Shown: in pieces, positions 5,921-27,340 of the stretch
Numbering within the stretch: position 1 is the stretch's first letter
Layout: each line of letters begins with the position of its first letter
Assembly (NCBI RefSeq): GCF_964355755.1
Contig: NC_092679.1
Location: forward strand, 3,874,201 to 3,938,200
Direction of reading: 5' to 3'
Source: Antedon mediterranea
Taxonomy: Eukaryota > Animalia > Echinodermata
DNA length: 64,000 nucleotides
Position numbers and translations under genes: made by a program
Notes under the pieces: model-generated
Seen by the model: the letters and a program-made list of their open reading frames with translations, nothing else
Databases searched by the model: none
Told to the model about the DNA's origin: nothing

Positions 5921-7239
5921 CTAATCTCCTGTTAATGTCATCATCCTCTACTTGATTTGGAATCAAATTTCGTTCGATCATAATATTTGCATATTTCTAT
6001 TTTAAAGATAAAGCAACAGAAAGTTTTGACCAATATACTTAAATGCAGAAAGGAAATGTTCAATTCAATTTGATGAACAGTTATTTAGATACAGTACTAT
6101 TGATGACATATCATATTTAAAGAATACCTATGGAATCTGTGATGATAGTGTGAAGTTGTAAAGTGACAGACATTGACTAACCATTGTTCATTGATGTGAC
6201 GTACTATTTAGGTTTTTATAGCACACCCCTGCGTGAATAATCATTTGTAAATGACGCACCTCTTCCGGGGGTGGTATGTTGGGTCATGCAAATTTTACAA
6301 GTACATTACCTTCGCCCATGTCACTCACCTCTATCTCTGCATCATTTATGATAACTTGTAAGTCTCTCTCACTCCCCTCATCATCTATTGTTTCAGATTC
6401 TGAGTATACAACTTTCTTTATAGACTTGGAACAAAGGACTGGTATTTCATATTCGACATCTTCATCACGGCCTGTAAAAGGAAAGAAAAATTAAAATCAT
6501 GCGGACTGCCATTATAAACATCAATCAAAAACTACATTTTTAAGATAGCTGTTGAATCGAGTAGTAGTTATCTATTACTTTATTAGGCCTCCATATCCGT
6601 CCCATCTAGACATTGCCAAATACTATAACATAACATAGTTATACTAGGCCTAGACCCTGGCCTAGTAGTAGTAGTAGTAGAGTAGGTATTTCACTCAGTC
6701 AAGAAGGCACTAGCTAGGGCTTACTACTACTAGCCTACAACTTTAACTACATATCTCCAGTAGAGTACAGTAGTACTACTCTACCCTAGTTAACCCTACT
6801 AGCTAGGCCTAGCTAGGCTAAATATAATAAAAAACAACAAATACTTGCCACATTCTGGTACAATTTCACCTATTGATATCAGCCCATTATGATAATCAGG
6901 AGAAGATCCTGTTATATCACAATTATCACATCTTTTGTCGGAGTAGGCTACACCTAACAGGCCTAGGCCAAGACCTAAGCCTGGGGAGTTATCAATAAAC
7001 TGTTGGTAGGCGACACCATCTAAGGGTAGAAATGGTCTCTCTGCGGCGACGTTGACCGGTGTCGCTGCGTTTACTATCAGAGGTTCAATCGGAAAATGCA
7101 CAACTTTTTGCCCTGATTGCGAGCCACCACATCGTTCATCTGCGTTGACTTTCATATTACACTGTACATTTGGATCTGTATGATCAGAGTTGCAGCTAGA
7201 TAAAAGCGCAACAAACATAAATAAAACAAACGAAGCCAT
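5921..7239 (-). CDS. Uncharacterised, probably secreted protein (5' exons only; 3' end unresolved)
   Basis: Exon 7239-6849 encodes MASFVLFMFVALLSSCNS... (signal-peptide-like, Cys-rich) and ends at a G|GCAAGT donor. Exon 6471-6329 has a polypyrimidine TTTTACAG acceptor and a GAG|GTGAGT donor. Exon 5996-5921 has a TAG acceptor and a G|GTGAGT donor. Phases join into one open frame. An upstream in-frame ATG at 7260 is possible. No family recognised. Confidence 0.55.
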
Positions 7240-7553
7240 CTCAATCGATACACATTTCATATCTGCTTCTTCGCTATCATTCTTTCTTTTTTGCAATTAA
7301 ATTGCAAGTTAGCGCATGTTTACAAACACCAAACATAGACGGCGCTGTTTAGTTTTACGGTATTATCAAAGAATATAATATCACAAGAATGAGTATTCCG
7401 CGATTTTTGCATGAGAAATTTGTAACAGAGAGCTCCAGAGAGTGATGCCCGCCCTCATAAGGGCGGATGTATACATACTAAATAAGACTTGATTTAATAG
7501 ATATTATACATGTCACATTAAATAGAATTATGATAATATATTTTGCAATTTAA

Positions 7554-8074: not shown

Positions 8075-9822
8075 TTAAACTATTTTATAATACATTTTAT
8101 TAACAAACTAGTGTACATTCACTTTTACAGACAATTATTTACTAATGCTAAGTTAGTTCACAAAAAAATCCTAACACAGCAACACCAAAAATCAACGAAT
8201 CGTTACTCAGCACGGCGGCCTATTCTTTACCATTGCCGTGTACTACTCTACGCCCGGTAAATTAAACATTGTTTTTATGATATAAATTAGTATAAAATAC
8301 ATGTTATTAATAGGACAAAATGTTAAATATCATTAACATTTATTTGTTTTACCAGAAACAAGTTAAATATAGGAATATATTAAACTATCGTTCGTGAAAA
8401 CGCGTAAACACCAACACGCCCGGTCACGCTATCGTAGCGCCCGGTTGATAAAGCAAACTATTTATACGGCAGTTTTTACTAAATAAATTGCATAAAACGA
8501 ACAATTAAATATCCAAATAGTATTTAACATGATGTTGGCATGTTGTTTATAACGTTTTTTATCATGAAAATACTACCGGTGGTCCAGCCTTTGATTAGTG
8601 AAACCGTCCGTCACAAAAAGTTGTATACATCCCAGATACATCCACACTTATGGCGGCGCCCTACCACATGGACAATATTACTGTTACAGGGAAAATCGCG
8701 GATTACTCATTCTTGTGATATATATTCTTTGGTATTATCAAAGAAAGATAATTGTTAATGTAATACTGAAATCTTTTTTTTTTTTCATTTTTATGCCACA
8801 TAAAATACTTTTCGACATAAAGAAGGAAAAGTTAAATACTCAAGTCCTCATGATAAGATATATTAAAGCATAGCAAATCATAGAAGGTAATTATGTAGCC
8901 CTTGCGATTAATTAGTAATAGGCCTTCACAAATTAATTGGTGTTAGATTAGAAAAGAAACGATAATATAAATCATGAATTGTGAATATACAGTATTACTA
9001 TAACATTAATATTTTCATCATTATAAAATACAATCGAAAAACACCCGGATTAATGTTTTTGCTGATACAAAGGATCGTAGGCCTACTATTAACCGATAAT
9101 CTTATACAGTTAAAAATTGATTTTCTAGTCTTTCTTTTTTGCATGGAAAATTTTGCAATTTTTATGTCACCAACACTTTATCTTTCGTTTGTTTTGCATT
9201 TTTTACAGTAAGCCTCTCTGATATCACCCTTACTTTAAAGATGTATTGTGCCCCAAAATCATGAAAAATAAAGATTTATAAAATCAGATTTTTAATATGC
9301 CAATTTGCACTGAGTTTTAATGAAGTTATTCGCTTCAATAGGAAAAAAACGAACAAAAATAATGATTTCACTTATAAAAGGACCAAATAAACGGTTATTA
9401 GCCAAAGCCTTTAAATTATATAATTTTGTTGGCGATCCAATTGTCAAAGTGAATAACTATTATGTAACATTAAAATGGTATATTAACATTTTTTCCCTAT
9501 AGGCCTATGTAGTATTACAAAAAAGAAACGTTGTTGGGCAAAGAAATGCTTATTTATATTCCCCTCCCTCTCTAGATATTCCTTCCCACGTTTTACTGTA
9601 TGGGTTGAGCTTTTTAAGTTGACCATAATTGTATTTACACAATAATAAATGTTTGTTTAAATGGGCCTATTTTTATCCATACTGTATTATTACGATAAAT
9701 TAAAACACGGGATCGGGAAAGAGTGAAACGGTACTCTTCTTCGATCCCTCTCGGTTTATCTTTCATTCAGGAATGTCGCCCTCTTTATTACAATTACTTT
9801 GGGAAGGGAAAAAGAGAAGCGA

Positions 9823-9832
9823 CGCCATCTTG
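9823..9832 (+). promoter_or_regulatory. YY1-type motif (CGCCATCTTG) near the presumed hnRNP L transcription start
   Basis: Exact GCCATCTTG match ~90 bp upstream of the hnRNP L ATG; the motif is common at housekeeping-gene TSSs. Motif match only. Confidence 0.4.
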
Positions 9833-9913
9833 ATCAACTACAGCTTTTTTCAACAACTTCTCTCTAGCCTAGGCCTATCTCTCTCAGTTTTTAACCTAAA
9901 TATTTCCGTCAAG

Positions 9914-12900
9914 ATGATGTCAGGTTATGATGGACATGCTGCTAAACGACAGAGGACTGATACAGGAGGTCGAGGAGTGCAGTCTGGTGTAAGTATACTA
10001 TGCAATTTAAGGGCAATCTTATATTAGGCCAGCCAGCCAGGCTTGCTTTTTTGTCGAAAAGGTATCATGGTGATGAATGGTTGTAAATGTAAATGTGCGT
10101 TAGTGAAATCCCGGTGAGTCGTTCTGAATCTACACCCGGTATCGCCCGGTAGGGTTTTATGATTTAAAATGTAGTGCATTTTATACAAGTACATGTTAAC
10201 ATTATATTGAGTGTTATTGTGATATTTAATTGTACGTTTTATTTATATATTTTTAATGTAAAAAAACTGTCAAAATTGGTTTATTCCAGAACTGAAGACC
10301 GCCCTCTCTTCTCTGATAAGTGAGTGATGTTTTGTGGAGCGCGTCGAAGCGATTGAGGCGTTTGATATTAAAGCCCCCTTCCCTACGTTTTTTAGATCTA
10401 ATTTAAGATCACAAACTATATTTAATGTAAAAATAATACTATATGGTCCTATTGCGATAACTTTTTTCGTCTTTAAACGGTTAAAAATGTGAAAAATAAG
10501 TCGATTCTAATAATTATAGCGGCCCGCTATAAATAGGGATACCGAGAGCTGACTCCATTTTCATTACCACGATTAAACAGCGCGCACGTTACTATGCGCG
10601 CAATGTCATTGACGCGGTATTTTTTTACTTTGGTAAACACTTTTTATTAGGTAATTATTCTGAAAATAAATTAATTATGAAAATATCCTTTTGAGTAAAT
10701 ATTCATTTACCTATTATTCTATAAGATCAAGTATTTTTTATTTCCATTTCATTCAACCAAAAATGTTAATATAGTGGTTAAAAGATCGTTATCGCCTAGC
10801 GCGTATAGCTTTTGTTTACTACGAAACCCTCGGACGGCTCAATGACCTACCATTTTCAACCTTATTTTTGTAGTTGAGCCTCTTATGACCTCAAAATGTA
10901 TTTTATTCCTACACCAAGATAATATAGTTCCACATACCATGTGCTTGTTACTAAGAAAAATATTAATTTTAAGTGCTAAAAAAACAGTTTTATCCCGATA
11001 TGAGGTCTATATAATTCGAATATTTCGTAGTAACAGCCCATATACCATGAAAAATAGCTGTTTTGTCCATTTTAAAAATAATTTCTTTAAAATTCCGAGA
11101 GGCTCAACTACAAAAACGCCATTTTATGGTATGATGTCATCGCAAGCCAATCAAACCTTCGCATTCGACCGCTCCGCATGTCTCACGGTTGACCGATTTT
11201 GGATTCTCGCCCTTTGATTGGTTGACGCGAATCAACACACAGCGGAATAATTTTCTCGCAAGTGCCGTGAAGTCACATGGTGTCAGGCCTGTCCAATTAC
11301 ACGGGAAAATAATGCATTGAAATTCTTCGAATGAGGTTAAATAAACACTCTTTTTTATATAATAAATAAGTACTATCATATTTGATTGAATTTTACAATG
11401 TTGATATACAAAATATATTACTTAAAACCGTGATTTTATATAATTATTTTGACGAAAAATGACTAGTTCATACAATTGTCGACTGGGGGCGCAATTTGTT
11501 TACATCGTTCGTGGCTAAAAACGATAATTTTCGGCGATGTTTTAAACCCTATATTTCGAAAACTACAAGTCATATTTTCATAATTCTTTCTTTATTATAA
11601 TATTGATACAAAATACTAACAGGCAATGTATAATTTGTTTGCAAAATATTAACTTTTAATTTTACATCGTTATCCCTACTATAAATCCCAAAATTGATTG
11701 ATTGATATTTTTGTTTTTCACCGGTAATTCGCCCACTTTTCGATCGATCGTGAGGCCAAAACAAATGGAAGACTCCTAACTTTTCAGCGAAAATACCGGG
11801 TTTTCCCCAATTTGTATCAACGGAGTCTGGCAAAAATAGAAAGACAATTAATGCAGCAACTATACAACGTCAGGCTAGGTATATAGCTAGCGTATGATGT
11901 TCGTACGTTACCGATGTTTACCAGCTAGGCCTACAAAACTAAGCCTAGCTAGGCTAGGCCTAAGACCGTCCACGAGAGGTCGATCGCCGCGAGCTACTTA
12001 GGTAGTGCATTGTTTCTCACTTTTTATCATAATTTACCATAAAACGTACATTTAAGACAAGGAATGACATGGTTTAATGTTTTTAAAGTGATATATATGT
12101 ATTATTTTCCAAAAAACGTCCAAAATTGCAGGGAAGGGGTCTTTAAAATAATAATTTATTTTAAGCTAAGCATAACTAAAAAACACATCTAATTTTGTAT
12201 TAAAAATAATTGCAAATATGACGTGTTTGTTTTGTATATTTCGTAATATTTAATTAGCCTAATAATAATAATAATCCTACATGTGCATATTATTACAATT
12301 ATTATACTGAATTTTTTTTTTTCTTTTTTGTGTCGTTGTTTTCAAACAAAAAAATTGCGTTTAGTTTATATCTTTTGTTTGTAAGTTGAATCAGGCTGAC
12401 TGCTCGTATCCTAAAAAAAGACAAAAAGATACATAATAATTAATATAGGCACATTGAAATATTATTATTGTTGTACTAATTATAGGACGACTGTCTAAAA
12501 CCAAAAAAATAAGTTAAAATACACTATATCACTTTATATCACACTTTTCTCTAATTTTCAATATTTTAAATCTACCCAGGCATTAATGACACAATGTATT
12601 GTTTATTCATTTGTAGGATCCATTTGAAGAGTCACATGGCAAGCCAGGACCGTCTAAAGTCATTCATGTCCGTGGACTTGCTGACAATGTAACAAAAGGT
12701 GATCTTGTGGAAGCCCTTCAACATTTTGGACAAATCAGGTAATTTAAGATAAATATACAGCAGTACTTAATCAATTACAAGTAACTCCCATTCTATTAAA
12801 CAAAAGAAAAGTAGCCCTTACATTTCCATTATCGCTTTCTTCATTTTTGATAACAAACCTAAAGCTCTGTTTACACTATCAAACTTTATGTGACAAAAAA

Positions 12901-15900
12901 ATGTGATGTGCCCACATACATGGACATGATGTCATATCACTACCGAATTTGGGTATATCACTACCATATTTGGACACATCAGACTTTTTATGTGAAATTA
13001 GTTTGATAGTGTAGGCAGAGCTTAATATATCTCAAATAATTGATAATTGTAAATCATTTTGCCATTTTCTCATCAGTTATGTTTACATGATGCCAAGACG
13101 AGGACAAGCTTTGGTAGAATTTGAAGAGTTTTCTGGTGCAAAGGCATGTGTAGATTTTGTGAATGTAAGTATTTGATTGATAATTTGAATCACTTTGAGC
13201 AATAAGCGCTACGTAAAATATTATTATTAAATTTATGTTAAAAGATCTTTATTTGTTTAATTAACTTTTTTTTACAAGGGTAGCTCTAACCGCTGTACTA
13301 CAGCAGTACAGCTGACTTGAAGATGCCCTAATGACAATAAAGGGTATACATAAGTAATAATTTTTGTTATTTACAGGAACATCCAGAAAATGTGGTAAAT
13401 GTTGCAGGTACCCCTGCATTCTTTAACTACTCAACCAGCTCAAAGATCAAAAGGCCAGGGTAAGATTCACTACATCTTCAAGATTCTTCATTTTGTTTTT
13501 TGTTTTTTAAATAAAGAATATTACTTTTGTACTTGGAAGTTTGTTTACAGTCTGATAATGATATACAAAAGAAATGCAAAATTCTTGAGCTAATAAAGAA
13601 TTTGATTTTAAATTCTAATTGTTCCAATTAGGGTCGTTTAACACAGAAACAATTTTAGTAACGTGTATTTTAAGTAAAAAATTTAGCTATATTTTAGATC
13701 TGTCAGTGGTTTACTGACATTAATAAACTTGTAGAACTGATTAATTATTAGTAGTAATAATTAATCAAAGTTGAATGAACTTGATAAATTTTGTATCATG
13801 ATTATTATTCATAAAATGCCTGGTATGAATTTCAAGAAAAGCCCCCCTATTATATCACTGATGAGACTTAATTAAATGGTTGATTAATGATTAACTACAC
13901 ATATGTTGCTGCTGCTCATACAGTACTTGCATTCTTCAGTTAGAGCTTGCTACGTTGTGCTTTACAAATATGTCTGATGCCTACGATAGTTAAGTATTGC
14001 AACTTACTAATACTGTTACTTTTATTTTAATGTAGCACATCTTAATCCTGTGTTTGGATAAGGGGATTAGACAATATTATAGTAGGCCATTTGGCAAAAT
14101 GTTAGGAATGAAGTTACTTAGTAGTTTACAGTATTAGGCATATTTATACTGTTTTTTGGATAATGGGGATTAGACAATATTATAGTAGGCCATTTGGCAA
14201 AATGTTAGGAATGAAGTTACGTAGTAGTTTACAGTATTAGGCATATTTATACTGTTTTTTGGATAAGGGGATTAGACAATATTGTAATAATTGGCCATTT
14301 TGCAAAATGTTAGGATGAAAGTACTTGCAGGATGGTAGTAGTAGTTGACAGTATTAGGAAGGTGTGTCACAGTATGTGCTATGCAAAATATACATAGGAT
14401 TTAAAATAACTAGAGACCTAAGCTCTCTCTACACTATCAAACCAGTTTGACAAAAAAGTGCGATGTGCCCAATTATGGTAGTGACACAGTATGCCCAAAT
14501 ATGGTAGTGATATGACATCATGTCCATATGGGCACATCACATTTGTTTGTAACATAAACTTTGATAGTGTAGACAGAGCTTTACTGGAAGAATCTTTGGT
14601 GAAATCACAGCTAGATGAAGTAAGGAGTGATATAGAACAGCAATGTCCTACCATTAATATTCAAAGCCTGTTTTTTTTTTTTTTAGTGATGGTCTTGATG
14701 AGAGTGGTGCCAATAATGTACTACTTTTTACCATTTTGAACCCTCGCTATCCTATTACCACAGTAAGTACAAGAAATTAAACATCATTTGAAATTAACCC
14801 CTCCCCCCCCCTCTTAAATACATAAATAATTTATTATTAAAATCTAGAGTTATCTTCAATATGGACCAAACTCTCTGAGACATGGCTCACTTTCTAATTA
14901 TTAATTGATGTGTTTATTTTCAGGACGTTCTTCATTCCATCTGCAAGGGATATGGTGAAGTTCTTCGTATTGTGGTTTTCAAGAAAAATGGAGTACAGGC
15001 TATGGTTGAATATCCTTTATATGATATTTTAATATCTACAGTATATAATATAAATCATTTCCTCAAATCATTTTAATCCATATAATGTGTGCTGAGTTAA
15101 TGAAAGCTTTTTATATGTTATATGCAGTTTGCGGTTCACCATGTATATACAGTTTAGAAAAGAACTGTTGATTTTCTCGATGTTTCTGGTTTTCCAGCAA
15201 ACTGTATATCACCATATTGATTTCGCCATGCAAACCTTCAAACAATATAAGCTTTTTATTGCCAAATATTGCCTAGTAATAGAGGTGTAAGACAATTTTT
15301 TTTATTTAAATGCAAAAATATTACAGGAGATTGTGGTATGGGCACAAATTAACTGCTAATATGAAATACTGATATCTATTTCTGACAACACTAATAATAT
15401 TATTTGTTAATGTTAGCACTCCGCCATTAAATAATCCTGTATCCGCCTTGCATTGTGAGATAAAAGGTGTAAAAATGCAACTGTTGCACTATGCCATTGT
15501 TAAATCCCAAGTATATCATTGTATTCGAGTTATTTTCCTTAACACTTTGTTTAAGTTTGACTCAATTACTAGCTCAACATCAGCACTTCAGAACTTAAAC
15601 GGCTGTGATGTGTACTCTGGTTGTTGTTCTCTTCGTATTGACTATGCTAGGGTATGTACATTGCAGAGTGATTCTATTGAAACTATGTACTAAGCACTTA
15701 GTTTCTAGCCATATGGTCATTTAAAGGTATAATTAGCCAGTCCACTGCTTGAGGAAAGCCATAGCATGTTGCTTCCAAAGATCTCAAACTGTAGAACCAG
15801 TTGGTTACTTTGTTAGTTACCCCTTATAGTCCTTGAGGAAATGATTGTATTGTGCTCAATTATTCAATGTTACTCTTTCTACTATTCTTGCAGCCCAAGA

Positions 15901-18900
15901 CACTAACTGTACACAAAAATGACTCTGAAACTTTTGATTACACCAACCCTACCCTCGGAGCCACTCCAAACAACCCGAGTAAGTCTCTTTTAAATAATAA
16001 CATTCTATTTAAAATGTACATAATGTGTTTTTCCTGTTAATAAAAATAAATAAATGACGAAAGGTTTTTAGAGGGAACAACAATTTAAAAAAAAAGGGAT
16101 TGTTTCAAAATTTGTTTTTTAAATTCATGGGGTTGGTCAATGGTAGCATATCAAAAACTTTGTTGTTGTTTTCCATCACATATTTCCAGGGTTCTTGCCA
16201 CGACGGTTACCAGTGGTAGAGGGTGTGGTCACCACTCTCTACAGTACATCAGGCCTTGTCTTTTTAAAATTGTAGGTGTGCTACAAATTCCACTCCTCAA
16301 TACATTCAGGGGTGCTGTAGGTGTGCCGTTTGTATTTTGGTGTGTAGAAGTTTACCAAATTTAAGTTTGTTGTAAATCCCACTCCTCGGCAGTTTAAGTG
16401 TATGTTGGGTGAGTGATCGCACACGCTCACCTCAAAAGAAAAGGCCTGATACATGCTGGCAAGCACCCTGTATTTCATAATGTACTGTAAATTACATGGT
16501 TACATTATATGGCTGTGTTTAACATTAACCACATTTCTTTTCAATTTCAGCACATTTTTTCTCAATCTCCTAGAGATAACCAACATTCCTTTATATTTAA
16601 CAGTAATATATTATCATGCATTTACTTCCTCAATAAGCATACAATGTTTTATCTTTCAATTGTAACATTGCAACCAGTCTTATCATATCACGATAAGACC
16701 ATTTTCAGAGTGACAACACATTTCAGCAAGTTACATAATCGACTCTCAGAACAAGATCAGGTAGAACGCAAGCTAACACGGAATACAAATGACGTTCAAA
16801 GCACAACAATATTCATGACATTCGTTACCTCTCACTAGCATTCAACGTAATAATATCAGAAGTTGAATCAACATAATAAGCATTGAAATAGTACACCAGA
16901 TATATGGTTGAAAGATGCCATGTGATATCACCATAATGTATATTACAAGACCATGATCTGCATAAGACATGAAGGCCTCACTGTTATCATAACCAGTCAA
17001 GAGATGCTGACAACAGTCATGTGACAACAGTCATGTGACAACCAACGTCTATTTGTCACCACATATCTTTCATACAGCCACTTCATACAGTGCCTACAGA
17101 AAATGACATGAATGAACACAACAAGGTGACAATGAACATGGCAAGGTGACAATGAACACAATAAGGTGACAATGAACATGACAAGGTGACAATGAACATG
17201 ACAAGGTGACACAACATGGTGACCGCAGGAAACATGAAATCATGATTATACACATCAGTTCATTTGAAGAGTTAACAACACCTTACATTGTGTGGATATG
17301 GTTCTTCGAACTTTAACCTTTACACAAAAGGGCATTCCTGTCTTTCAATTGGTTTTCTTTACGCATCAAGCCTGTCTACCCTTCCTTTGTGGTGTTTCTT
17401 AAAATGATTTCATGTACATATTTTTCACACAGAACAGTAGTTAATTTTCTCATACTAACATACGTTACCATTCTTAAGTTGTTACATATTTTTATACTAG
17501 ACATGTTATATGATGTTTCATTATGTTCTATTATCATTGTGGAGCATATAACACAAACATTGTATCATTAATAAAAATACAAAAACCTGAGTGTTAGTTT
17601 TTATTACATCATCGAGAAAAGGCAACTTACAGCAATATGACTCTCACCAACCTCAAAACAATGGAATATTCCAACTAACAATGCAATATTCCAACCCACA
17701 ATGCAATATTCCAACCAACAATGGAATATTCCCACCCACAATGCAATATTCCAACAAATGAAATAATTGAATAATGTATATTTACAATGATGAAGAAATG
17801 TACATGGAAGATTCTTAATATACAAACCAGCATTTGAACAAAAACAATATACCGTACAATAAATGTACATTATATTATCCTGCATTTAACTGAAATAACT
17901 TGCCATTTTATATATGAAATTTGTACAAATATATAGCTCACCCAATTTGCAACATTACAAAAAGAAATTACCATTCTGGTCAAAATATCTACAAAATTCA
18001 TTGAAAATTCAATCTCTTTTATTTTTAAATACCTTTTATTTGCTGGTTATGACCATACTTTCTTCTTCATCTTCCCAATATATTTGGAATCTTTTCCTGG
18101 TTTCCTCCTTTACCCCCTTACTGATACCCGGCAGAGGTTGCCGTCATGGTGGTATTTGAGAGATTGTTGCCGAAGTTGCTCTCTGGCTGTGCGTTGACAA
18201 GCCTGACGTGTTGACATCGTCAACCTGAGCACACTTGTGTGTAAGTCATAGTGAATGTTATTTTTTACTTAGGTAGTTGTAATTTATATAAGTGTATTTA
18301 AATAAATATAATAATTAATATACTGTGCAATAAATCCAATGTTAACATGTTGGTGTTTTAATATTTAACTATGTTCTGTTGAAAAAGAAAATGTTTGTCA
18401 TAATCTTTGGTTTCTTTTTTAAGTACAGGTTTTTATCCATACAGGTTAATTATGTTTTAAAAAGTTAAAATTGGTTGTCTTTTCATAATTTATTTTTCTT
18501 TCCACGTCATTCAGTCGGCATTGCCTACTTATTATTATGTTTTATAAATGTTAAAAAGCTATTTTGCATACAGCTAACGTGTTTAATTTTGCTTAATAGG
18601 TCGTGGTTCAGCGCTTCTAGATGACCCACCAGAGCCAGCTTACAATGGACCAAGTGTCCGAAGCAGAGGTGGAGTCCGTAATGACGGCATGGGCCCAGGA
18701 GGTGGTGGACGTTATGGTAATGTCCATTATTTGTGAACTCCAAAATGTGGAATTTGTTAGAAATCACAGCCGCTTTGGTTAGTGCCAACGTACTGATTTA
18801 TATCTAACTTTATTTCCATTATCTATTTAGGTATGGAGCCACCTATGCCTTCATATGGTAATGGTTCTCGTGCCGGTTACCAAGAGCGTGGCTTTCAAGG

Positions 18901-21900
18901 TCGCGGCGGTGGTGGATATCCTGTCGAACGAGGTGACTATGGCCAGTCTTACCAGGATCCATACGGTATGCAGTCTCCCTCTGCATTATCGTCGGCCATG
19001 ACTGGTGGCCCCGTGGTGATGGTTTACAACATGGACCCAGAGAAGATGAACTGCGAGAGGCTTTTCAACCTCCTCTGTCTGTATGGAAACGTTGTTAAGG
19101 TAACTCATTCATACACATTTATTCAGTTATTTAACTGGGGAAAACACTAGAAGCAAAAGCTTGTCTCATGAAGGCCCCTACAATACAAATATGTATTTAC
19201 TCTCATTCTCTTTTCAACTTCCTCTGTCTGTATGGAAACATTAAGGTAATTCATTCATTCAAATGCATTTATTCAGTTATAACAATAATAACTGGGGGCC
19301 ACACTAGAAAAAAAAGCTTGTCTCATGAAGGCCCCTACAATAAAAATATGTATTTACTCTCATTCCCTCATCCTTTGGATTGTATCTAAAGCTGTAGGTT
19401 CAAACAACCATACTAACTTTTTAGTGTGTTGTTATATTACAATTTCATTTGTGTTTCCAGGTCAAGTTTATGAAGACAAAGCCAGGGTGTGCTATGGCCG
19501 AGATGGCTGATGCCCTAGCAGTTGAAAGGGCCATTACTAACCTGAGCAACATTGAATTCTTTGGAAAGACTATCCAGCTTGGGTAAGAATCTTATGTAGA
19601 ATGTCAAATAGCATATATTCACCAGCATAAAATAGGGCTGACAATCCCTTCACACACTAAACTTTAAACAAATCTTGATTTCATGAGATGTTGAGGTTTC
19701 ATAAGAGATCATTTCAAATTATTTTCATCATCGAATACATTTTTACTTTAATAACCTATGATTTCAATTTGTTTGTTTCAATTAAGTAGAAGTTTATGAG
19801 GCAGTCCCTACATAAAGCAATGTGTATGATTACCAAAAAAAAAGCTTGCCTACAAAATTGCATTAACAGCTTAAAGAGCAAACAAAATGTAGTTACAGCA
19901 TTAGCTTAAGTAGTATAATTTGGCATGGTACCTTTTCTGCATTGCAATATTACAAAAGTAACTCATCTTTATGGTTATCTTATCTTACTATAGCTTCTCC
20001 AAACAAATGTACATTGCTCCACCACCAGTAGTTGGAGACTTATCTGATGGTACACCTGCGTTTAAAGATTTCTCAAGTAGCCGTAACAATCGCTTCTCAA
20101 CTGTAGAGTCTGCTGCCAAGAACCATATCCTTTTTATCATTATTGGAAATCTAACATTCCTGAAATTTCTATTCATGAATAAGACTTAAAATTTGCATAT
20201 ATGAAAAGGCCTTTAAAAACGTTGAAAAAATGATTGTTTTTTAAGTTTGTTACAATATGATATAGATATTTTATCAGTTTGACTTATGGATGAGCACTTA
20301 TCGTTTTAAACAAAAAGATAATTTTGTTATTATCTTAAAAACATTTAAATGTATTACAGCTGAGCTGGCATTACATTTAATAGGGAAAAATTGTTTAATG
20401 TTCGCATAGGAAATTGAATTTATAAAATGTTTTGGTTAAAATAAAACTTCAGTTTGACAAGAGCCATATGTTCTAGATACGGTACTAAGTAGGTGTAAAT
20501 CCCATGTAGTCAAAACCTGTTTAAATTTGTATTTTTTTAGATTTGATGGTGTATTTTGTTATATGTATTTATTTTCATTTGATGATTTCATTATATTGTT
20601 GTACCTTAATTATATGTTCACGTATTCAGCAACCGTCCAAGGTGCTTCACTTCTTCAACTCCCACCCAGAAAGTGATATTGAAAGGATAAGACAGGTAAA
20701 TATAGAAGAAGCCATCAAATATTAAAACACAAATTAAACCACATTGATCTCTCTTTCTAGTCCATTCAGCTTCACAAGTTTTACCTCTAAGGCCACAAGA
20801 CTTAAGCTTCACAGTATAGTTGATTGAATAAAACTGTTCTGTTCATAATAAAAGTATAAACGTAAGATGTACAAGGAACCAAAATCTGCTTACAATTAAA
20901 GTTCCAGTGGCTAAGACCAACCATTTCTAGAGCTCTTTTTTTCCTAATACAGTACAGTGAAAGACTGGAATACCATTCCATACTCCACACCATTATTAAT
21001 AAAACACCACTAAGCTGATCTCTAAATTTGACTCGCTAACCCCCCCTCTCCCCCCTCCTCCTTTCCTCCACCTCTATCTACACATAGAGTGATAATTTAG
21101 TTTTTCAATTACATAATAAAGATCAAAATGTTTAAAAAATAAAGGTACCTAAATAATTAACCTGTAAGACCTAGTCTTCACATGTCAACTTTGTATTGCT
21201 GTTAAGAATTTTTTTGGGGTTTTTTTTTCTCGAAAACCTAGTAAACAACCTTGATAATACTTGTAGTTCAGTCATGGCTATTAGTATTGGGCGTTTCTAA
21301 CTCAGATCCTAATCTAATCATCAACCATCCAATTGAATTAGATTTCTCTAATTTAATCGTTTTTATTTCAATCATTTTTAGGTATTTGTGACATGTGGTG
21401 CTGTAGAGCCGTTAAACATTAAAATGTTTGAAGGAAAAAGCAATGAGTATCAGAAAGGTTAGTATACTGAATAATACTAATTTATTATTTATTCTATTTA
21501 AAAAAACCTCCAGAAATGAAGAGATACGTTGAAATATCAAATCAATACAGAAAAATATACAAAACAATTCAAAGCTTAATCTCTGTCTACACTATCAAGC
21601 CAGTTTGACAAAAATGTGTGATGTACCCCAAATATGGTAGTGATATGCCCAAATATAGAAGTGATATGATGTCCATATATGGGCACATCACGTTTTTTGT
21701 CACATAAAGTTTGATAATGTAGACTGAGCTTTAGATTGCCCTCAGTAAGAGTTAAAGATAATTAATATGGTTTTTATTTACAAGTGTAATAATAATAATA
21801 AATGTTGATGTATTTCTGAATAAATTCAATTAGATAGTTTTACCTCGTAATTTGAAGAAAAAAAAGCTAATAAGTAATATATTTCAATTTATTCATAAAC

Positions 21901-23074
21901 ATGATAGCAGCTTTTACAAATTTATGAAATTTGTAATTTATTCCGGTTAATTGTACCGTAGATCGACTATTTACACAAAAAATGTTTACTTTACAATTGA
22001 CATTTGTAATACAATGTATTTGAAACATCTGTCGCCACCAGGTGACCTCACAAGTTGTATAATGTCTTTCCACAATATCTGGTTGTACAGAAATGTGCTG
22101 ATAAATTGCATTTAAGTTTAGACACTATTTATTATAAACCCAAAAGTCTACACAGGCAGTCGTGTCAAAATTACACTATTTACTTTAGTTTAGTGTACTG
22201 AGTCAGTCACTGCTATAATTATTAAGAATATAATATTTAATATATTCTTTATACTGAATGACATTTTCAGTGTTAAGGAATTGTTTTTCAAAGTGGTTCA
22301 GTAGAGAACATCAACAATATAAATTAAAACAATAATTTACAGTAAAAGCTTGCTAAATAATGTATAAACAGGTTATACAGTGAATAAATTATAGTTTCTG
22401 CAGTATAATTATTTATTTAATTACAGTAATTAAATTAATATAATGTTGATTTCCTCATTTATAGGTGAACGTAGCCGTACAGGCCTAGCTGAGTTCCCCG
22501 ACAAAGCCAAGGCAATTGAAGCCCTTATTCTCTGTAACCACACACCCATGCAAAACCCAAGTAAGCGTACTACTGTAGACAAATGTTTTTACCTGAGATT
22601 AAGTTAAATTTTTTTTTTTCATTATCAAATTTACTTTGAAATGGCCCTCGTTTTAAGCTGTCTACACTATCACTACACTATCTTCATATATGGACATGAT
22701 GATTACCATCACACTTTTTTCGCCAAACCAGTTTGATAGTGTAGACAGCGCTTTAGATATTTTAACTGTCTGTAATACAAAGTCACATTTATAACGTGTA
22801 TTATGTTAAGGTTAGGCATATGACCTAATTTACAGCATCACATGTTATGTGTATGTGACAGATTCAATTACAGATACAGTACCAAGAAGCAGCTATTATA
22901 GTATGTTGAGAATTATAACATGAATATTGTATGCATTATAAATGTTATTGGAAATACATTGTATTTATTTTCTGACAGAAAACAGAAATATTTAAACTTT
23001 TTTTTTTCTCTTCAGATGGCCGTTTCCCGTATACTTTCAAGCTGTGCTTCTCAAATTCAATGCACGCCCAGTGA
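9914..23074 (+). CDS. HNRNPL: Heterogeneous nuclear ribonucleoprotein L family protein (4 RRMs), 551 aa, 16 coding exons
   Basis: Exons: 9914-9988, 12617-12738, 13077-13164, 13377-13459, 14687-14762, 14924-15009, 15555-15651, 15894-15978, 18600-18716, 18831-19099, 19461-19582, 19994-20124, 20622-20695, 21382-21457, 22465-22560, 23016-23074 (1656 nt, open frame). Diagnostic peptides: KRQRT, PSKVIHVRGL, NNVLLFTILNPRYPIT, IVVFKKNGVQAMVEF, LNGCDVYSGCCSLRIDYA, MNCERLFNLLCLYGNVVKVKFMK, SRNNRFST, KNRIQQPSKVLHFFN, PYTFKLCFS. Confidence 0.95.
10372..12142. mobile_element. ~1.8-kb non-autonomous Kolobok-like DNA transposon in hnRNP L intron 1
   Basis: TTAA|AGCCCCCTTCCCTAC...GCAGGGAAGGGGTCT|TTAA: imperfect TIR, TTAA TSD and AG terminus. 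The interior is CpG-rich and has an internal inverted repeat (TTTTTGTAGTTGAGCCTC ~10865 / GAGGCTCAACTACAAAAA ~11098). No transposase ORF. Confidence 0.75.
12863..13022. mobile_element. MITE family A (PIF/Harbinger-like)
   Basis: TAA|AGCTCTGTTTACACTATCAAAC...GTTTGATAGTGTAGGCAGAGCT|TAA. Confidence 0.85.
14052..14320. repeat. Tandem duplication, ~108-bp unit x ~2.5
   Basis: The unit TTTGGATAA(T)GGGGATTAGACAATATTATAGTAGGCCATTTGGCAAAATGTTAGGAATGAAGTTAC... recurs at ~14053, ~14155 and ~14258. Confidence 0.85.
14421..14580. mobile_element. MITE family A (PIF/Harbinger-like)
   Basis: AGCTCTCTCTACACTATCAAAC...CTTTGATAGTGTAGACAGAGCT termini with the family's internal motifs. Confidence 0.85.
15010..15554 (+). 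other. U12-type (minor spliceosome) intron with AT-AA termini
   Basis: 5' site ATATCCTTT at 15010 and branch site TTTTCCTTAAC at 15533-15543. The frame (GA|G TTT GAC = E-F-D) is kept only if the intron ends at ...TTAA 15554. Confidence 0.85.
16187..16470. mobile_element. Small CAGGG-ended DNA element (6-bp TSD TATTTC) containing a nested family D element (16250-16448)
   Basis: Outer element: TATTTC|CAGGGTTCTTGCCA...TGGCAAGCACCCTG|TATTTC. Inner element: CAGGCCTTGTCTTTT...AAAAGAAAAGGCCTG, flanked by GTACAT/ATACAT. Confidence 0.8.
17111..17215. repeat. 20-bp minisatellite (ATGAACATGACAAGGTGACA) x ~5
   Basis: Repeated units read directly from the sequence. Confidence 0.9.
17657..17757. repeat. 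20-bp minisatellite (ACAATGCAATATTCCAACCC-like) x ~5
   Basis: Repeated units read directly from the sequence. Confidence 0.9.
18135..18240 (+). other. Candidate poison (PTC-containing) cassette exon of hnRNP L
   Basis: Polypyrimidine tract CTTTTCCTGGTTTCCTCCTTTACCCCCTTACTGATACCCGGCAG, then a GC-richer 106-nt segment, then a GTAAGT donor at 18241. When spliced after exon 15894-15978 it gives an in-frame TGA at 18212-18214. Confidence 0.65.
19060..19365 (+). repeat. Tandem duplication copying the 3' end and donor site of hnRNP L exon 10
   Basis: CTTTTCAAC(C/T)TCCTCTGTCTGTATGGAAAC...TTAAG|GTAA and the downstream intron sequence (AAAAGCTTGTCTCATGAAGGCCCCTACAATA...) occur twice, about 150 bp apart. 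Confidence 0.85.
20125..20621 (+). other. U12-type AT-AC intron
   Basis: 5' site ATATCCTTT at 20125, branch site TACCTTAAT at ~20602-20610, and 3' end TTCAC at 20621. Splicing gives AAC C|GT ATT CAG = N-R-I-Q of the conserved KNRIQ motif. Confidence 0.92.
21579..21730. mobile_element. MITE family A (PIF/Harbinger-like)
   Basis: CTCTGTCTACACTATCAAGC...TTTGATAATGTAGACTGAGCT termini. Confidence 0.8.
22656..22752. mobile_element. MITE family A, short copy
   Basis: AGCTGTCTACACTATC...GTTTGATAGTGTAGACAGCGCT. Confidence 0.7.
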
Positions 23075-24270
23075 ACCTTATTTCATAATCAATTATTACG
23101 CCTGTTAATAGCTTTTTTAGTAACAAGATGATTAGGCGCTATTAACCGTGTAATATTTAAAAAGAAATCACCTTAATTTTATTCTAAAACAAGAAAATTA
23201 AGAATTAAAACTGAATAGCTGCCACATTTTGTTTTTTGAATAAATTTGTAATCATGACCGATGTCTAGAAGCCATGTGTTTTTACAATTTGTATATAATG
23301 GGAGTAAGAGTAAAAATCAATTTGAAATGCATTAATTCAATGTGTACGTATTTGAAATAAAAATGCTACAGTATTAGAAAAACAATGAAGCTGCTAGTCA
23401 AAGAAAGCAGAGTTTTTAAATTTTTGTGGGTGGTTATTTTAAAACAATTTGTCAGCATTACGTTGATTGTTTATTTGTTGTGGTGGATTTAGGGGAATCC
23501 CCCTCTCCACCACTCCTATCATTTTTATCCTAATCGCATTTCAATCAACTATAATAAGTCGATACATTTTATTATTTTGAATGTTAAATGCTTTTAATGT
23601 TTATACATTATTTCGTTTTTTAATTTTAAAATATAAATTTAATTTTAACAGCAACTCACCCCTTTATTGATTTGCCACTGCAAGGGGTAGTCAAGTTGAT
23701 TTAGTTTGAAGATATTCACAAGCAGGGTAGAAATAAATGCATGGCTAATTTTGCACCATAACCAGCAGTCTTTTGGGAGCCTATCATATTTTATTTTTGT
23801 GATCTAGGCCTGGGGAAGTATTAGTATAAGCATATTCATTTATTATTGAGTAGATGCTGTACTGCACTGAATTAATGTGAACCAGACAAGTACTAATCTA
23901 TCTAAAGGTTCCTTTCTGACAATGCTTTCTTTGTGGTTACCGGCCTGTTAAGAATCTTTTCAAGAAACCATGCATGCTTTTCATTTATTTGTATCTACAA
24001 AATAGTTGTATAGTGTAGAATTGTTTTTCACTGGTATTGATTATGTTGTAAAAGTGCTGATTAAAAATGTCTTCAACAAAATCTGAATCTTGTGTTTGCA
24101 TTATTTTTGTTTATACCAGTTTCATATTCAGTAATTATGGTGGGCCCTTAGTGGCCTACATGTACCTATAATATTACAACAAACCTACCAGATAAAAGAC
24201 AAAACCAGGTGTACTAAACTCAAATCGATGTGTCGTCTGAACGCGTGTTTTTGCACAAGTTTACCAGTAA

Positions 24271-24519
24271 AGTTCCGTCTACACTATCAAACTAGTTTGA
24301 CAAAAAAGTGTGCCTAAATATGGTAGTGATATGACATCATCATGTCTATATAAAATTTAGCTTGAAATTGAGGTTAAAGCAAATTGCTTATTCGCCCCTC
24401 TGCAATTACACATCTCTTGCATACGGCTGAAACTCCTGGTGGTGGTTTTCCAGAGTTCTTTCAGGTTGGATGGTCAAGTCACATTTGTTTTCACATAAAG
24501 TTTGATAGTGTAGACAGCT
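24271..24519. mobile_element. MITE family A with an internal insertion
   Basis: AGTTCCGTCTACACTATCAAAC...GTTTGATAGTGTAGACAGCT with family motifs. Confidence 0.7.
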
Positions 24520-25829
24520 TAGCAAATGGCATTTTAGTGTGAACATGAATTGTATGGGAATAAATCCAGGTATGAGTGAAATTACAAGAATATCAAAGTT
24601 ATCCATGTGGAGGACATTCTGATTCAGTCGCGCGCCTATATGACGTCTTATTATGTATAAATAGTATGATATCCTTATAACATTGATTAAGTGGGACAAG
24701 GCCTACTATGTTTAAATGCATGATCCTTTATTAAAATGATTAAGTGTGACAAATACATTGCTATCACACGCGAAATATTTACACTATAATAATAACATGT
24801 ATATTTATATCTTCACTTTGGTGCATATTCTGCCAAGCCCAATTACAGGGTTGGTCATAGGCCAATTTGAAATACTTTTTTATAAATATCCCCAGGTACG
24901 TCTCTTCCGATTTACCAGTAGGATTACCAGCGCTAAGATTGCGGATTAAGTTCTTCTGTGGCTTACTGTGCATTTTTATACATTTGTAAGCCTAGATGAA
25001 TAATATTGTTATTGTTTATATTTGAAATAGGAGTGCCACCCCGTATGTATGATGCAACACCAAACATAATACAACGTACTGTTATAACCAATACATCCAG
25101 GGATTTCAAAGATAAGTCATTACTCCCAAGTTTGTCCATTAGGCTTATGTCCAATGTTTTTAGAATCGATTTCTACGCGTATGACAACAAGCAAAATAAA
25201 CTAGAATAAAAAATAGAAATTGTGCTTAAATTATGAAGTATATCCTATCAAGAAGAGCGCGCGCACTATGAATAGGTAGGTCCGGGTTATAATTAATGTT
25301 CGTGTTGGCAATTCGAAATTATCATTTAATTAATAACTTTATAAAGACTTTAATGATCAACACAGCGTATAGGCTACAGTGAAAATATTTTTAAGGCACA
25401 AAGGTAATTGTATTGCACTCTTACTTTACACATATTAACTCTAATTAACCTGTTCATATGTTTGGAAATATGTTTAAACTTTAGCCAATAATTTTGACTG
25501 TATTGGATCTTGTTTTCATATAGAGAGACAACCACAAATTAAAATGCTCTCAGAATTAAACCAAGCGCACATCCTAGTTATTAAGAAGTGAACCAGGGAG
25601 ATTTATGGGGGAAACGTACCCACATGATGGGGATAATATTTTTCTGCCATTATCCTTCAAGACGCCTTGATATTTTTGAAGCGCTATCAAAATGGACTGT
25701 ACCGTAGTGTCCTAATGATATAAAACATAAATAAGAGGAGGACGGAGTAAATCACAGGGAGCATTCGCCGATGAAAACCAATAAGTTAATATCGCCTTTT
25801 CTGTCCATTTTTTTGTTCCACTTGCAAAA

Positions 25830-26719: not shown

Positions 26720-26851
26720 AGCTCTGTCTACACTATCAAACTTTATGTGACAAAAAAGTGTGATGTGCCCATATATGGACATGATGATGTCATATGACTA
26801 CCATATTTGGGCATATCACACATTGTGGTCAAAGTAGTAGTCGACAGAGCT
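26720..26851. mobile_element. MITE family A (PIF/Harbinger-like)
   Basis: TTA|AGCTCTGTCTACACTATCAAAC...GACAGAGCT|TTA. Confidence 0.8.
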
Positions 26852-27340
26852 TTAGACTTTTAAAATATGTGATGCCGATGAAGAAGTTGTTATTAATATT
26901 ATTTCATGTATGGTGATGTTTATAATAGGACACATTTGTAATGTACTCAAATGACGTCCAGCAATGATAAATGAAAGTAAAATTAGATTTAAATTGGTCA
27001 CCAAGACTGATATGAGGATCCTTTGTTCGCGCTCCGCGCATCACCTAACTATACCGTCAATACAATTGATGCATTCTGTATATATAAATGAATAAATAAT
27101 ATTTATGAAATATATTAATGAAATTGAAATTAACTATAGGCCTAAACGTATGTGGTGACGTGGTAACAACAGATGGTTGGTACAGAATCAAGTTTGTTGC
27201 TTTCTATCTCTTGTATCTCGTTTCCCAGTATGCAATACAATTTCTTACCAACCATAATGTATGTGTAAACGCGTTTGCGAAACTAGAAGAAACGCGAAGC
27301 TGACGCGTGCATGCGTACACAAAGTGAATGATTCATTCAA

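What the first reader, a model, noticed from the sequence alone, without database searches (positions are those of the whole stretch)
15010..15556. Minor-spliceosome intron with non-canonical AT-AA termini and a competing AG 1 nt downstream
Seen: a perfect U12 5' site (ATATCCTTT) and branch site (TTTTCCTTAAC). The conserved AMVEFD frame requires cleavage after AA (15554). Use of the adjacent AG (15554-15555) would delete one nucleotide and frameshift. Established: U12 introns tolerate non-AC/AG ends, but these are rare. Inference: the AA-versus-AG choice could be a further productive/NMD switch, and automated gene models will probably mis-annotate this junction.
Basis: partly seen in the sequence, partly recalled or inferred. 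Interest (0 to 1): 0.7.

Follow-up and report, generated by a model that had tools for sequence, protein, structure and literature searches.

The report
Real AT-AA minor intron, hnRNP L
A feather-star gene for the splicing regulator hnRNP L has a rare minor-class intron that an assembled transcript shows is cut at an unusual AA end, and the AG one base further on is likely a by-product of the protein code rather than a gene-control switch.

Summary
Observation confirmed. Intron 6 (15010-15554) of an hnRNP L gene has a U12 donor, a U12 branch motif and AT-AA ends. My 16-exon model equals RefSeq XP_071961968.1 (Antedon mediterranea) letter for letter. One spliced contig joins 15009 to 15555; three DNA runs of one sample show no change at 15553-15555. 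It is the known minor intron of human HNRNPL (AT-AC) and HNRNPLL (AT-AT) at the same codon; this scan also noted it before in another genome (e1-9925954). Of 31 distinct orthologous introns from metagenome contigs, 13 end AT-AA, 12 AT-AC, 5 GT-AG, 1 AT-AT. The switch idea has no support: the next base is the Glu wobble base, must be A or G, and varies like other wobble sites. Use of the AG could not be measured, because contigs drop rare forms. The gene has a second, AT-AC, minor intron (20125-20621).

The parts
9914..23074 (+). hnRNP L-like gene, 16 coding exons, 551 aa, RRM domains
   Evidence: Model identical to P0001 = XP_071961968.1; Pfam RRM_1, RRM_8, RRM_5, RRM_10
14924..15009 (+). Exon 6 (86 nt), ends with the first two bases of the Glu codon in RRM2
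   Evidence: Spliced contig; phase 2
15010..15554 (+). Intron 6, U12-type, AT-AA, 545 nt
15010..15018 (+). U12 5' splice site ATATCCTTT
   Evidence: same context as human HNRNPLL donor
15533..15543 (+). U12 branch motif; presumed branch A at 15542, 12 nt from the 3' end
   Evidence: identity of the branch A is from consensus, not mapped
15553..15554 (+). Used acceptor AA; first A-N pair 9 or more nt after the branch
15554..15555 (+). Adjacent AG (13 nt from branch), formed with the Glu wobble base; use not seen
15555..15651 (+). Exon 7 (97 nt)
20125..20621 (+). Intron 12, second U12-type intron, AT-AC, 497 nt, phase 1, weaker branch motif at 20601-20610
   Evidence: junction fixed by identity with P0001, no RNA laid
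18135..18240 (+). Candidate poison exon in intron 8 (106 nt, in-frame stop)
   Evidence: Sequence only; skipped in contig 1 of X1 (loose end)

Best explanation
This is the old minor-class intron in the second RNA-binding domain of hnRNP L, spliced at AA in the assembled transcript; its last base likely changed from C to A, and the minor spliceosome likely finds the end by taking the first A-N pair about 12 bases after the branch point, so the adjacent AG is likely a by-product of the glutamate codon that at most leaks a little error product predicted to be removed by NMD. Steps: (1) U11/U12 read the donor and branch motifs (inferred from sequence and from the human orthologues, which are retained when minor-spliceosome parts fail). 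(2) The end is set by distance from the branch, with a fixed penultimate A and a tolerant last base (published rule; fits the orthologues). (3) Exon 6 joins 15555 and restores V-E-F-D (shown). (4) If the intron regulates anything, it is likely by slow splicing and retention, which would stop translation at 198 aa (inferred).
For: Spliced contig and DNA runs. Model equals RefSeq protein. Human HNRNPL intron AT-AC and HNRNPLL intron AT-AT sit at the same GA|R codon; retention rises 0.053 to 0.264 and 0.094 to 0.618 after CENATAC depletion (PMC8280824 supplement); both are retained in U4atac-mutant cells (PMC6800510 supplement). Four kinds of termini at this one intron in 31 distinct orthologues. 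In the 14-member clade the base after the intron is G 12 times and A twice; other Glu/Lys/Gln wobble sites show 1, 3, 5 and 6 minority bases. The used site is the first A-N ending 9 or more nt after the branch in 13 of 14 AT-AA introns (window included), with 1 A in 53 upstream positions against about 30% A in intron bodies; for AT-AC introns 7 of 12 and 10 of 52. Published: optimum distance 11-13 nt, AT-AG disfavoured, 3' choice error-prone (PMC3584512); AT-AA is the commonest non-canonical type (PMC10639083).
Against: Only one spliced contig from one run; contigs drop rare forms and NMD would hide an AT-AG product, so its rate is unknown. AG at 13 nt is inside the published optimum. The terminal A is kept in 13 of 14 clade members while four-fold sites have a median of 5 minority bases in 14, which is more constancy than free drift would give. 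Orthologue ends are inferred from reading frame, not RNA. 13 of the 14 AT-AA rows are one clade, so they are not independent, and the 9-nt cut-off was chosen after seeing the data. No minor-spliceosome snRNA was looked for in this genome (none held).
Confidence: 0.83

Rival explanations
1. One reading: the minor spliceosome chooses in a regulated way between AA (full protein) and AG (frameshift, NMD).
For: AT-AG gives a stop at residue 190 in exon 7 of 16. Both sites lie 12-13 nt from the branch. AA followed by G in 12 of 14 distinct AT-AA introns. hnRNP L is known to autoregulate through NMD, by a poison exon (PMC6885243 passages).
Against: The next base must be A or G (Glu), so a competitor is unavoidable; it is A in L008 and L058, on separate branches. 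No adjacent AG exists in AT-AC or AT-AT orthologues, human included. A review doubts that alternative U12 3' sites are regulated rather than errors. No known way for a regulator to move the site by one base (my knowledge).
Confidence: 0.07
2. The AG serves the major spliceosome as a bypass when minor splicing is slow: the exon 5 donor (14763) or a GT at 15005 joins 15556, giving in-frame proteins of 522 or 549 aa with a damaged RRM2.
For: Both joins are in frame. Pyrimidine content before the AG (0.75) is within that of the gene's major acceptors (0.60-0.85). Activation of major sites near minor introns is published (PMC8280824; PMC6717393).
Against: All 13 major acceptors of the gene are CAG or TAG; this one is AAG. 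The frame match is automatic for an AG one base after a phase-2 intron. No such joint in X1 and no such protein among the 149 then held; both are weak blanks.
Confidence: 0.07
3. Assembly error or private variant: the true end is AC or AG.
For: The three DNA runs are one sample and may be the source of the assembly.
Against: Three runs agree with the window at 15553-15555; the transcript contig of another sample has G at 15555; AT-AA stands at this intron in 21 of 47 other loci.
Confidence: 0.03

Closest known systems
Minor intron of human HNRNPL (chr19:38844105-38845649, AT-AC) and HNRNPLL (chr2:38582169-38583840, AT-AT); PMC8280824 supplement
   Same: Same split Glu codon in RRM2, same ATATCCTTT donor, TTCCTTAAC/T branch motif near the end; HNRNPLL also has a non-canonical end followed by G.
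   Different: Ends AA here, so the following G forms an AG; 545 nt against 1545 and 1672 nt. The human list has one U12 intron for HNRNPL; this gene has two.
AT-AA U12 introns (human RASGRP4, FLJ21106, MSH3; PMC1557818 Tables 2-3; PMC10639083 section 30)
   Same: A-type donor, U12 branch, AA end; ends switch between AA, AC and AT among orthologues; often mis-mapped by automated tools.
   Different: Different host gene. No paper in the library held HNRNPL + AT-AA + minor intron or Antedon + U12 + intron.
Regulated minor-intron switches (SRSF10, CENATAC, NCBP2, PRMT1 AT-AA/NMD twintron; PMC8329584, PMC3564746)
   Same: Splicing-factor host; alternative outcome is a premature stop.
   Different: Those use competing major and minor sites, some highly conserved; here the competitor is one base away, set by codon choice, and not conserved.

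Membership tests
U12-type (minor) intron, A-type | 5' site RTATCCTTT at the true donor | tested here: met
   15010-15018; junction from spliced contig
U12-type (minor) intron, A-type | Branch motif TCCTTRAC about 11-13 nt from the 3' end | tested here: met
   15533-15543, 12 nt
U12-type (minor) intron, A-type | Position conserved with known minor introns | tested here: met
   Human HNRNPL/HNRNPLL; 47 loci
U12-type (minor) intron, A-type | Removal depends on U11/U12/U4atac/U6atac in this animal | not testable with these tools
   Shown only for the human orthologues
Non-canonical AT-AA subclass | Spliced product ends the intron at AA | tested here: met
   one-base register ambiguity resolved by the U12 motifs
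AS-NMD switch | Alternative product carries a premature stop upstream of later junctions | tested here: met
   190 aa, stop in exon 7 of 16
AS-NMD switch | Alternative product exists at a measurable level | tested here: inconclusive
   Not listed in X1, but contigs drop rare forms
AS-NMD switch | Competing site is conserved beyond coding need | tested here: not met
   G 12, A 2 of 14, like other wobble sites; absent in non-AA orthologues
AS-NMD switch | Ratio responds to a regulator or condition | not testable with these tools
   No raw reads offered
hnRNP L family | Four-RRM layout and orthology to named hnRNP L proteins | tested here: met

The most novel reading that the evidence does not exclude
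The AA end is kept on purpose as a weak, A-type minor-spliceosome valve in hnRNP L, and the neighbouring AG is its overflow: when minor splicing is limiting, transcripts go either to a one-base frameshift and decay or, through the major spliceosome, to an in-frame hnRNP L lacking the core of RRM2. With a second minor intron in the same gene, a major splicing regulator would be tied twice to minor-spliceosome activity.
Probability: 0.1. Interest if true: 0.62.

Novelty: new member of a known kind. Interest (0 to 1): 0.27.

Why it matters
It is a clean natural case of a minor intron spliced in register at AA with an AG one base away, both at the optimal distance from the branch. The orthologue series (AT-AC, AT-AA, AT-AT, GT-AG at one codon) is a ready set of natural variants for asking how the minor spliceosome picks its 3' end. 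It also marks a junction at which gene models go wrong (the EYP read-through). If the AG were a regulated exit it would be a new kind of one-base switch, but nothing found here points to that.

Tried and rejected
No whole genome is held, so minor snRNA genes and other AT-AA introns of this animal were not surveyed. No run was listed as RNA on record and none as raw reads; the missing AT-AG and exon-skip joints in X1 are a blank, not evidence. RNA support for intron 12 and intron 8 was not obtained. The shifted reading TA-AG (same protein) is rejected by the contig. Independent origin of AT-AA in the crinoid and in the 14-member clade was tested and not shown: the AU test does not reject one clade (p 0.36, 177 columns, long window branch), and the clade could not be named (nearest named proteins 40-47 of 59 identical; two unnamed hits; Atlas unavailable). 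The second-intron site lay in none of the 75 loci. Rfam found nothing in 9000-25000. CA density does not single out intron 8 (9.3 per 100 nt against 8.9 in intron 2). 28 of 75 loci were dropped because the downstream exon was not in the DNA held; two of them (L048, L069) do not look like hnRNP L. Dietrich 2001 and 2005 and Levine and Durbin 2001 are not held and are used only second-hand.

Full report
The gene. The finding lies in a plus-strand gene of 16 coding exons from 9914 to 23074. With intron 6 cut at 15010-15554 the model gives 551 residues, identical letter for letter to P0001, which NCBI names hnRNP L-like of Antedon mediterranea, XP_071961968.1. Pfam finds RRM families along it; the intron falls in the RRM_8 match at residues 129-209, the second RRM. 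Thirteen introns are GT-AG; intron 6 is AT-AA and intron 12 is AT-AC.

The observation. ATATCCTTT stands at 15010-15018 and TTTTCCTTAAC at 15533-15543. The intron is 545 nt and phase 2, splitting a Glu codon. In 40 simulated strands of the same composition the donor 9-mer came 1.3 times and the branch 9-mer 0.5 times per 64 kb, never paired within 3 kb. Of 17 acceptors tried, 15555 alone gives the database protein; 15556 gives 190 residues with the stop in exon 7; retention gives 198 residues.

RNA and DNA. Five runs hold the stretch, none on record as RNA and none as raw reads; four were laid on 14600-16100. One contig of X1 (depth 286.5) skips introns 5, 6 and 7. At intron 6 it joins 15008 to 15554 with one letter that fits both sides, which is the same message as 15009|15555. 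The exon pieces on either side have no other letters. So the assembled message is the AT-AA form, not the AT-AG form and not the shifted TA-AG form. It is one contig of one run, and contigs drop rare forms, so nothing can be said about a low level of AG use. X2, X3 and X5 (one sample, perhaps the assembly's own) show no change at 15553-15555.

The intron is old and known. HNRPL and HNRPLL are listed as U12-intron genes (PMC1874599, passages). Supplement rows of PMC8280824 (file 13 not searched) give the human introns with flanks: HNRNPL AT-AC and HNRNPLL AT-AT, both splitting the same Glu codon, with retention rising from 0.053 to 0.264 and from 0.094 to 0.618 after 48 h of CENATAC depletion. 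Both are also retained in U4atac-mutant patient cells (PMC6800510, supplement rows; file 4 not searched).

Orthologues. A pattern for Q-A-M-V-E plus the U12 donor found 75 metagenome loci; 47 held the next exon, 28 did not. Ends were inferred from the reading frame: 21 AT-AA, 18 AT-AC, 7 GT-AG, 1 AT-AT; after collapsing at 97% exon identity, 13, 12, 5 and 1 of 31. The pattern cannot see copies that lost the intron or turned major. All 13 AT-AA introns fall in one 14-member clade (100/100), with one AT-AC member and lengths from 307 to 1377 nt. L052 matches vertebrate hnRNP L at 59 of 59 residues and is AT-AC. The window's branch is long and its place unsure; a single clade with the 14 is not rejected (p 0.36), and the clade could not be named. 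Repeated origin of AT-AA is therefore plausible but not shown.

The adjacent AG. The first exon base is the third base of Glu, so any AA end here is followed by A or G: a site one base downstream is unavoidable. In the clade it is G 12 times and A twice, on separate branches; other Glu, Lys and Gln wobble sites show 1, 3, 5 and 6 minority bases in 14. That is no sign of selection for AG. Against pure drift, the terminal A is kept in 13 of 14 while four-fold sites have a median of 5 minority bases.

How the end is likely chosen. A review gives an optimum branch distance of 11-13 nt, says AT-AG is disfavoured and that U12 3' choice is error-prone, with doubt whether alternative sites are regulated (PMC3584512, passages). 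AT-AN pairs can splice (PMC1557818, section 23). AT-AA is the commonest non-canonical type among conserved minor introns, all non-canonical types being about 3.8% in animals (PMC10639083, section 30; its Table S1 not read); PMC1557818 counted 3 AT-AA and 11 AT-AG in human. Here AA is 12 nt and AG 13 nt from the presumed branch A. In 13 of 14 AT-AA introns the used site is the first A-N ending 9 or more nt after the branch, with 1 A in 53 upstream positions against about 30% in intron bodies; AT-AC introns show 7 of 12 and 10 of 52. This fits a weak end that survives only where no earlier A competes, but the rows are related, the cut-off was set after looking, and three branch calls (L002, L055, L065) are doubtful.

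Another fate for the AG. It is a phase-0 acceptor. Joined to the exon 5 donor it gives 522 residues, joined to the GT at 15005 it gives 549, both in frame and both damaging RRM2. It is AAG, whereas all 13 major acceptors of the gene are CAG or TAG. No such joint or protein was seen.

Mis-annotation. Among 125 held proteins that cover the site (top hits only: 120 of 1148 listed), 7 read E-Y-P, the translation of the U12 donor. The GenBank model of Holothuria leucospilota differs from a transcript-derived protein of the same length only there. RefSeq has the Antedon protein right; its intron coordinates were not seen. In PMC6717393 (supplement rows and passages) human HNRNPL scores 100% alternative 5' and 3' site use in all eight tissues, which I infer is a one-base mapping shift.

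Novelty. No paper in the library held HNRNPL, AT-AA and minor intron together or Antedon, U12 and intron; databases of minor introns and unseen supplements (PMC3564746 .doc files, PMC10639083 Table S1) may list it. PMC3564746 (first third and passages) and PMC8329584 (passages) describe a major/minor twintron in HNRNPLL with no known role. PMC4176328 (passages and supplement rows) adds that non-canonical sites are often alternative and mis-mapped. Verdict: a real, correctly spotted AT-AA member of a known class at a known conserved position. The switch is possible but unsupported. Interest 0.27.

Noticed in passing
window 20125-20621: Second U12-type intron in the same gene, AT-AC, phase 1, branch-like GTACCTTAAT at 20601-20610 (12 nt from the end). 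The human list shows one U12 intron for HNRNPL, so this one was gained here or lost or converted in vertebrates.
   Followed up: partly
window 18135-18240: Candidate 106-nt poison exon in intron 8: long pyrimidine tract, CAG acceptor, GTAAGTC donor, stop after residue 263. It resembles in effect the human hnRNP L autoregulatory exon and is a better NMD-switch candidate than the AG; positional homology not tested.
   Followed up: partly
window 15951-16100 and beyond: A second X1 contig (332 nt, depth 19.4) runs from exon 8 into intron 8: retention, pre-mRNA or DNA in the run.
   Followed up: no
L001, L006, L008, L013, L016, L017, L022, L027, L029, L031, L038, L051, L058, L067: An unnamed animal clade keeps AT-AA at this intron in 13 of 14 lineages, mostly with a TTTCTTGAC branch and a GCAA end; contigs with the same assembly prefix also hold a second hnRNP L-like gene with an AT-AC or other A-type intron (e.g. 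L024/L014, L068/L059, L008/L034).
   Followed up: partly
L002, L005, L010, L012, L070: The same intron is G-type (GT-AG with U12 motifs) in five lineages, so it has switched between A and G subtype.
   Followed up: no
window 15197-15251: Short high-copy repeat inside intron 6 (depth in the thousands, joints on opposite strands), likely a small inverted-repeat element.
   Followed up: no
window 12870-13020, 14420-14580, 21580-21730, 22655-22750, 24275-24520, 26720-26855: Recurring interspersed element with inverted ends containing CTACACTATCAAAC, seen by eye in several introns and downstream; MITE-like.
   Followed up: no
window 21382-21457: Exon 14 ends with a short insert (S-N-E-Y-Q-K-G region) absent from the Anneissia protein; sea urchin isoforms vary at the same place.
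   Followed up: no
window 6300-7240, minus strand: A divergently oriented neighbouring gene with a signal-peptide-like start near 7240, seen by eye.
   Followed up: no
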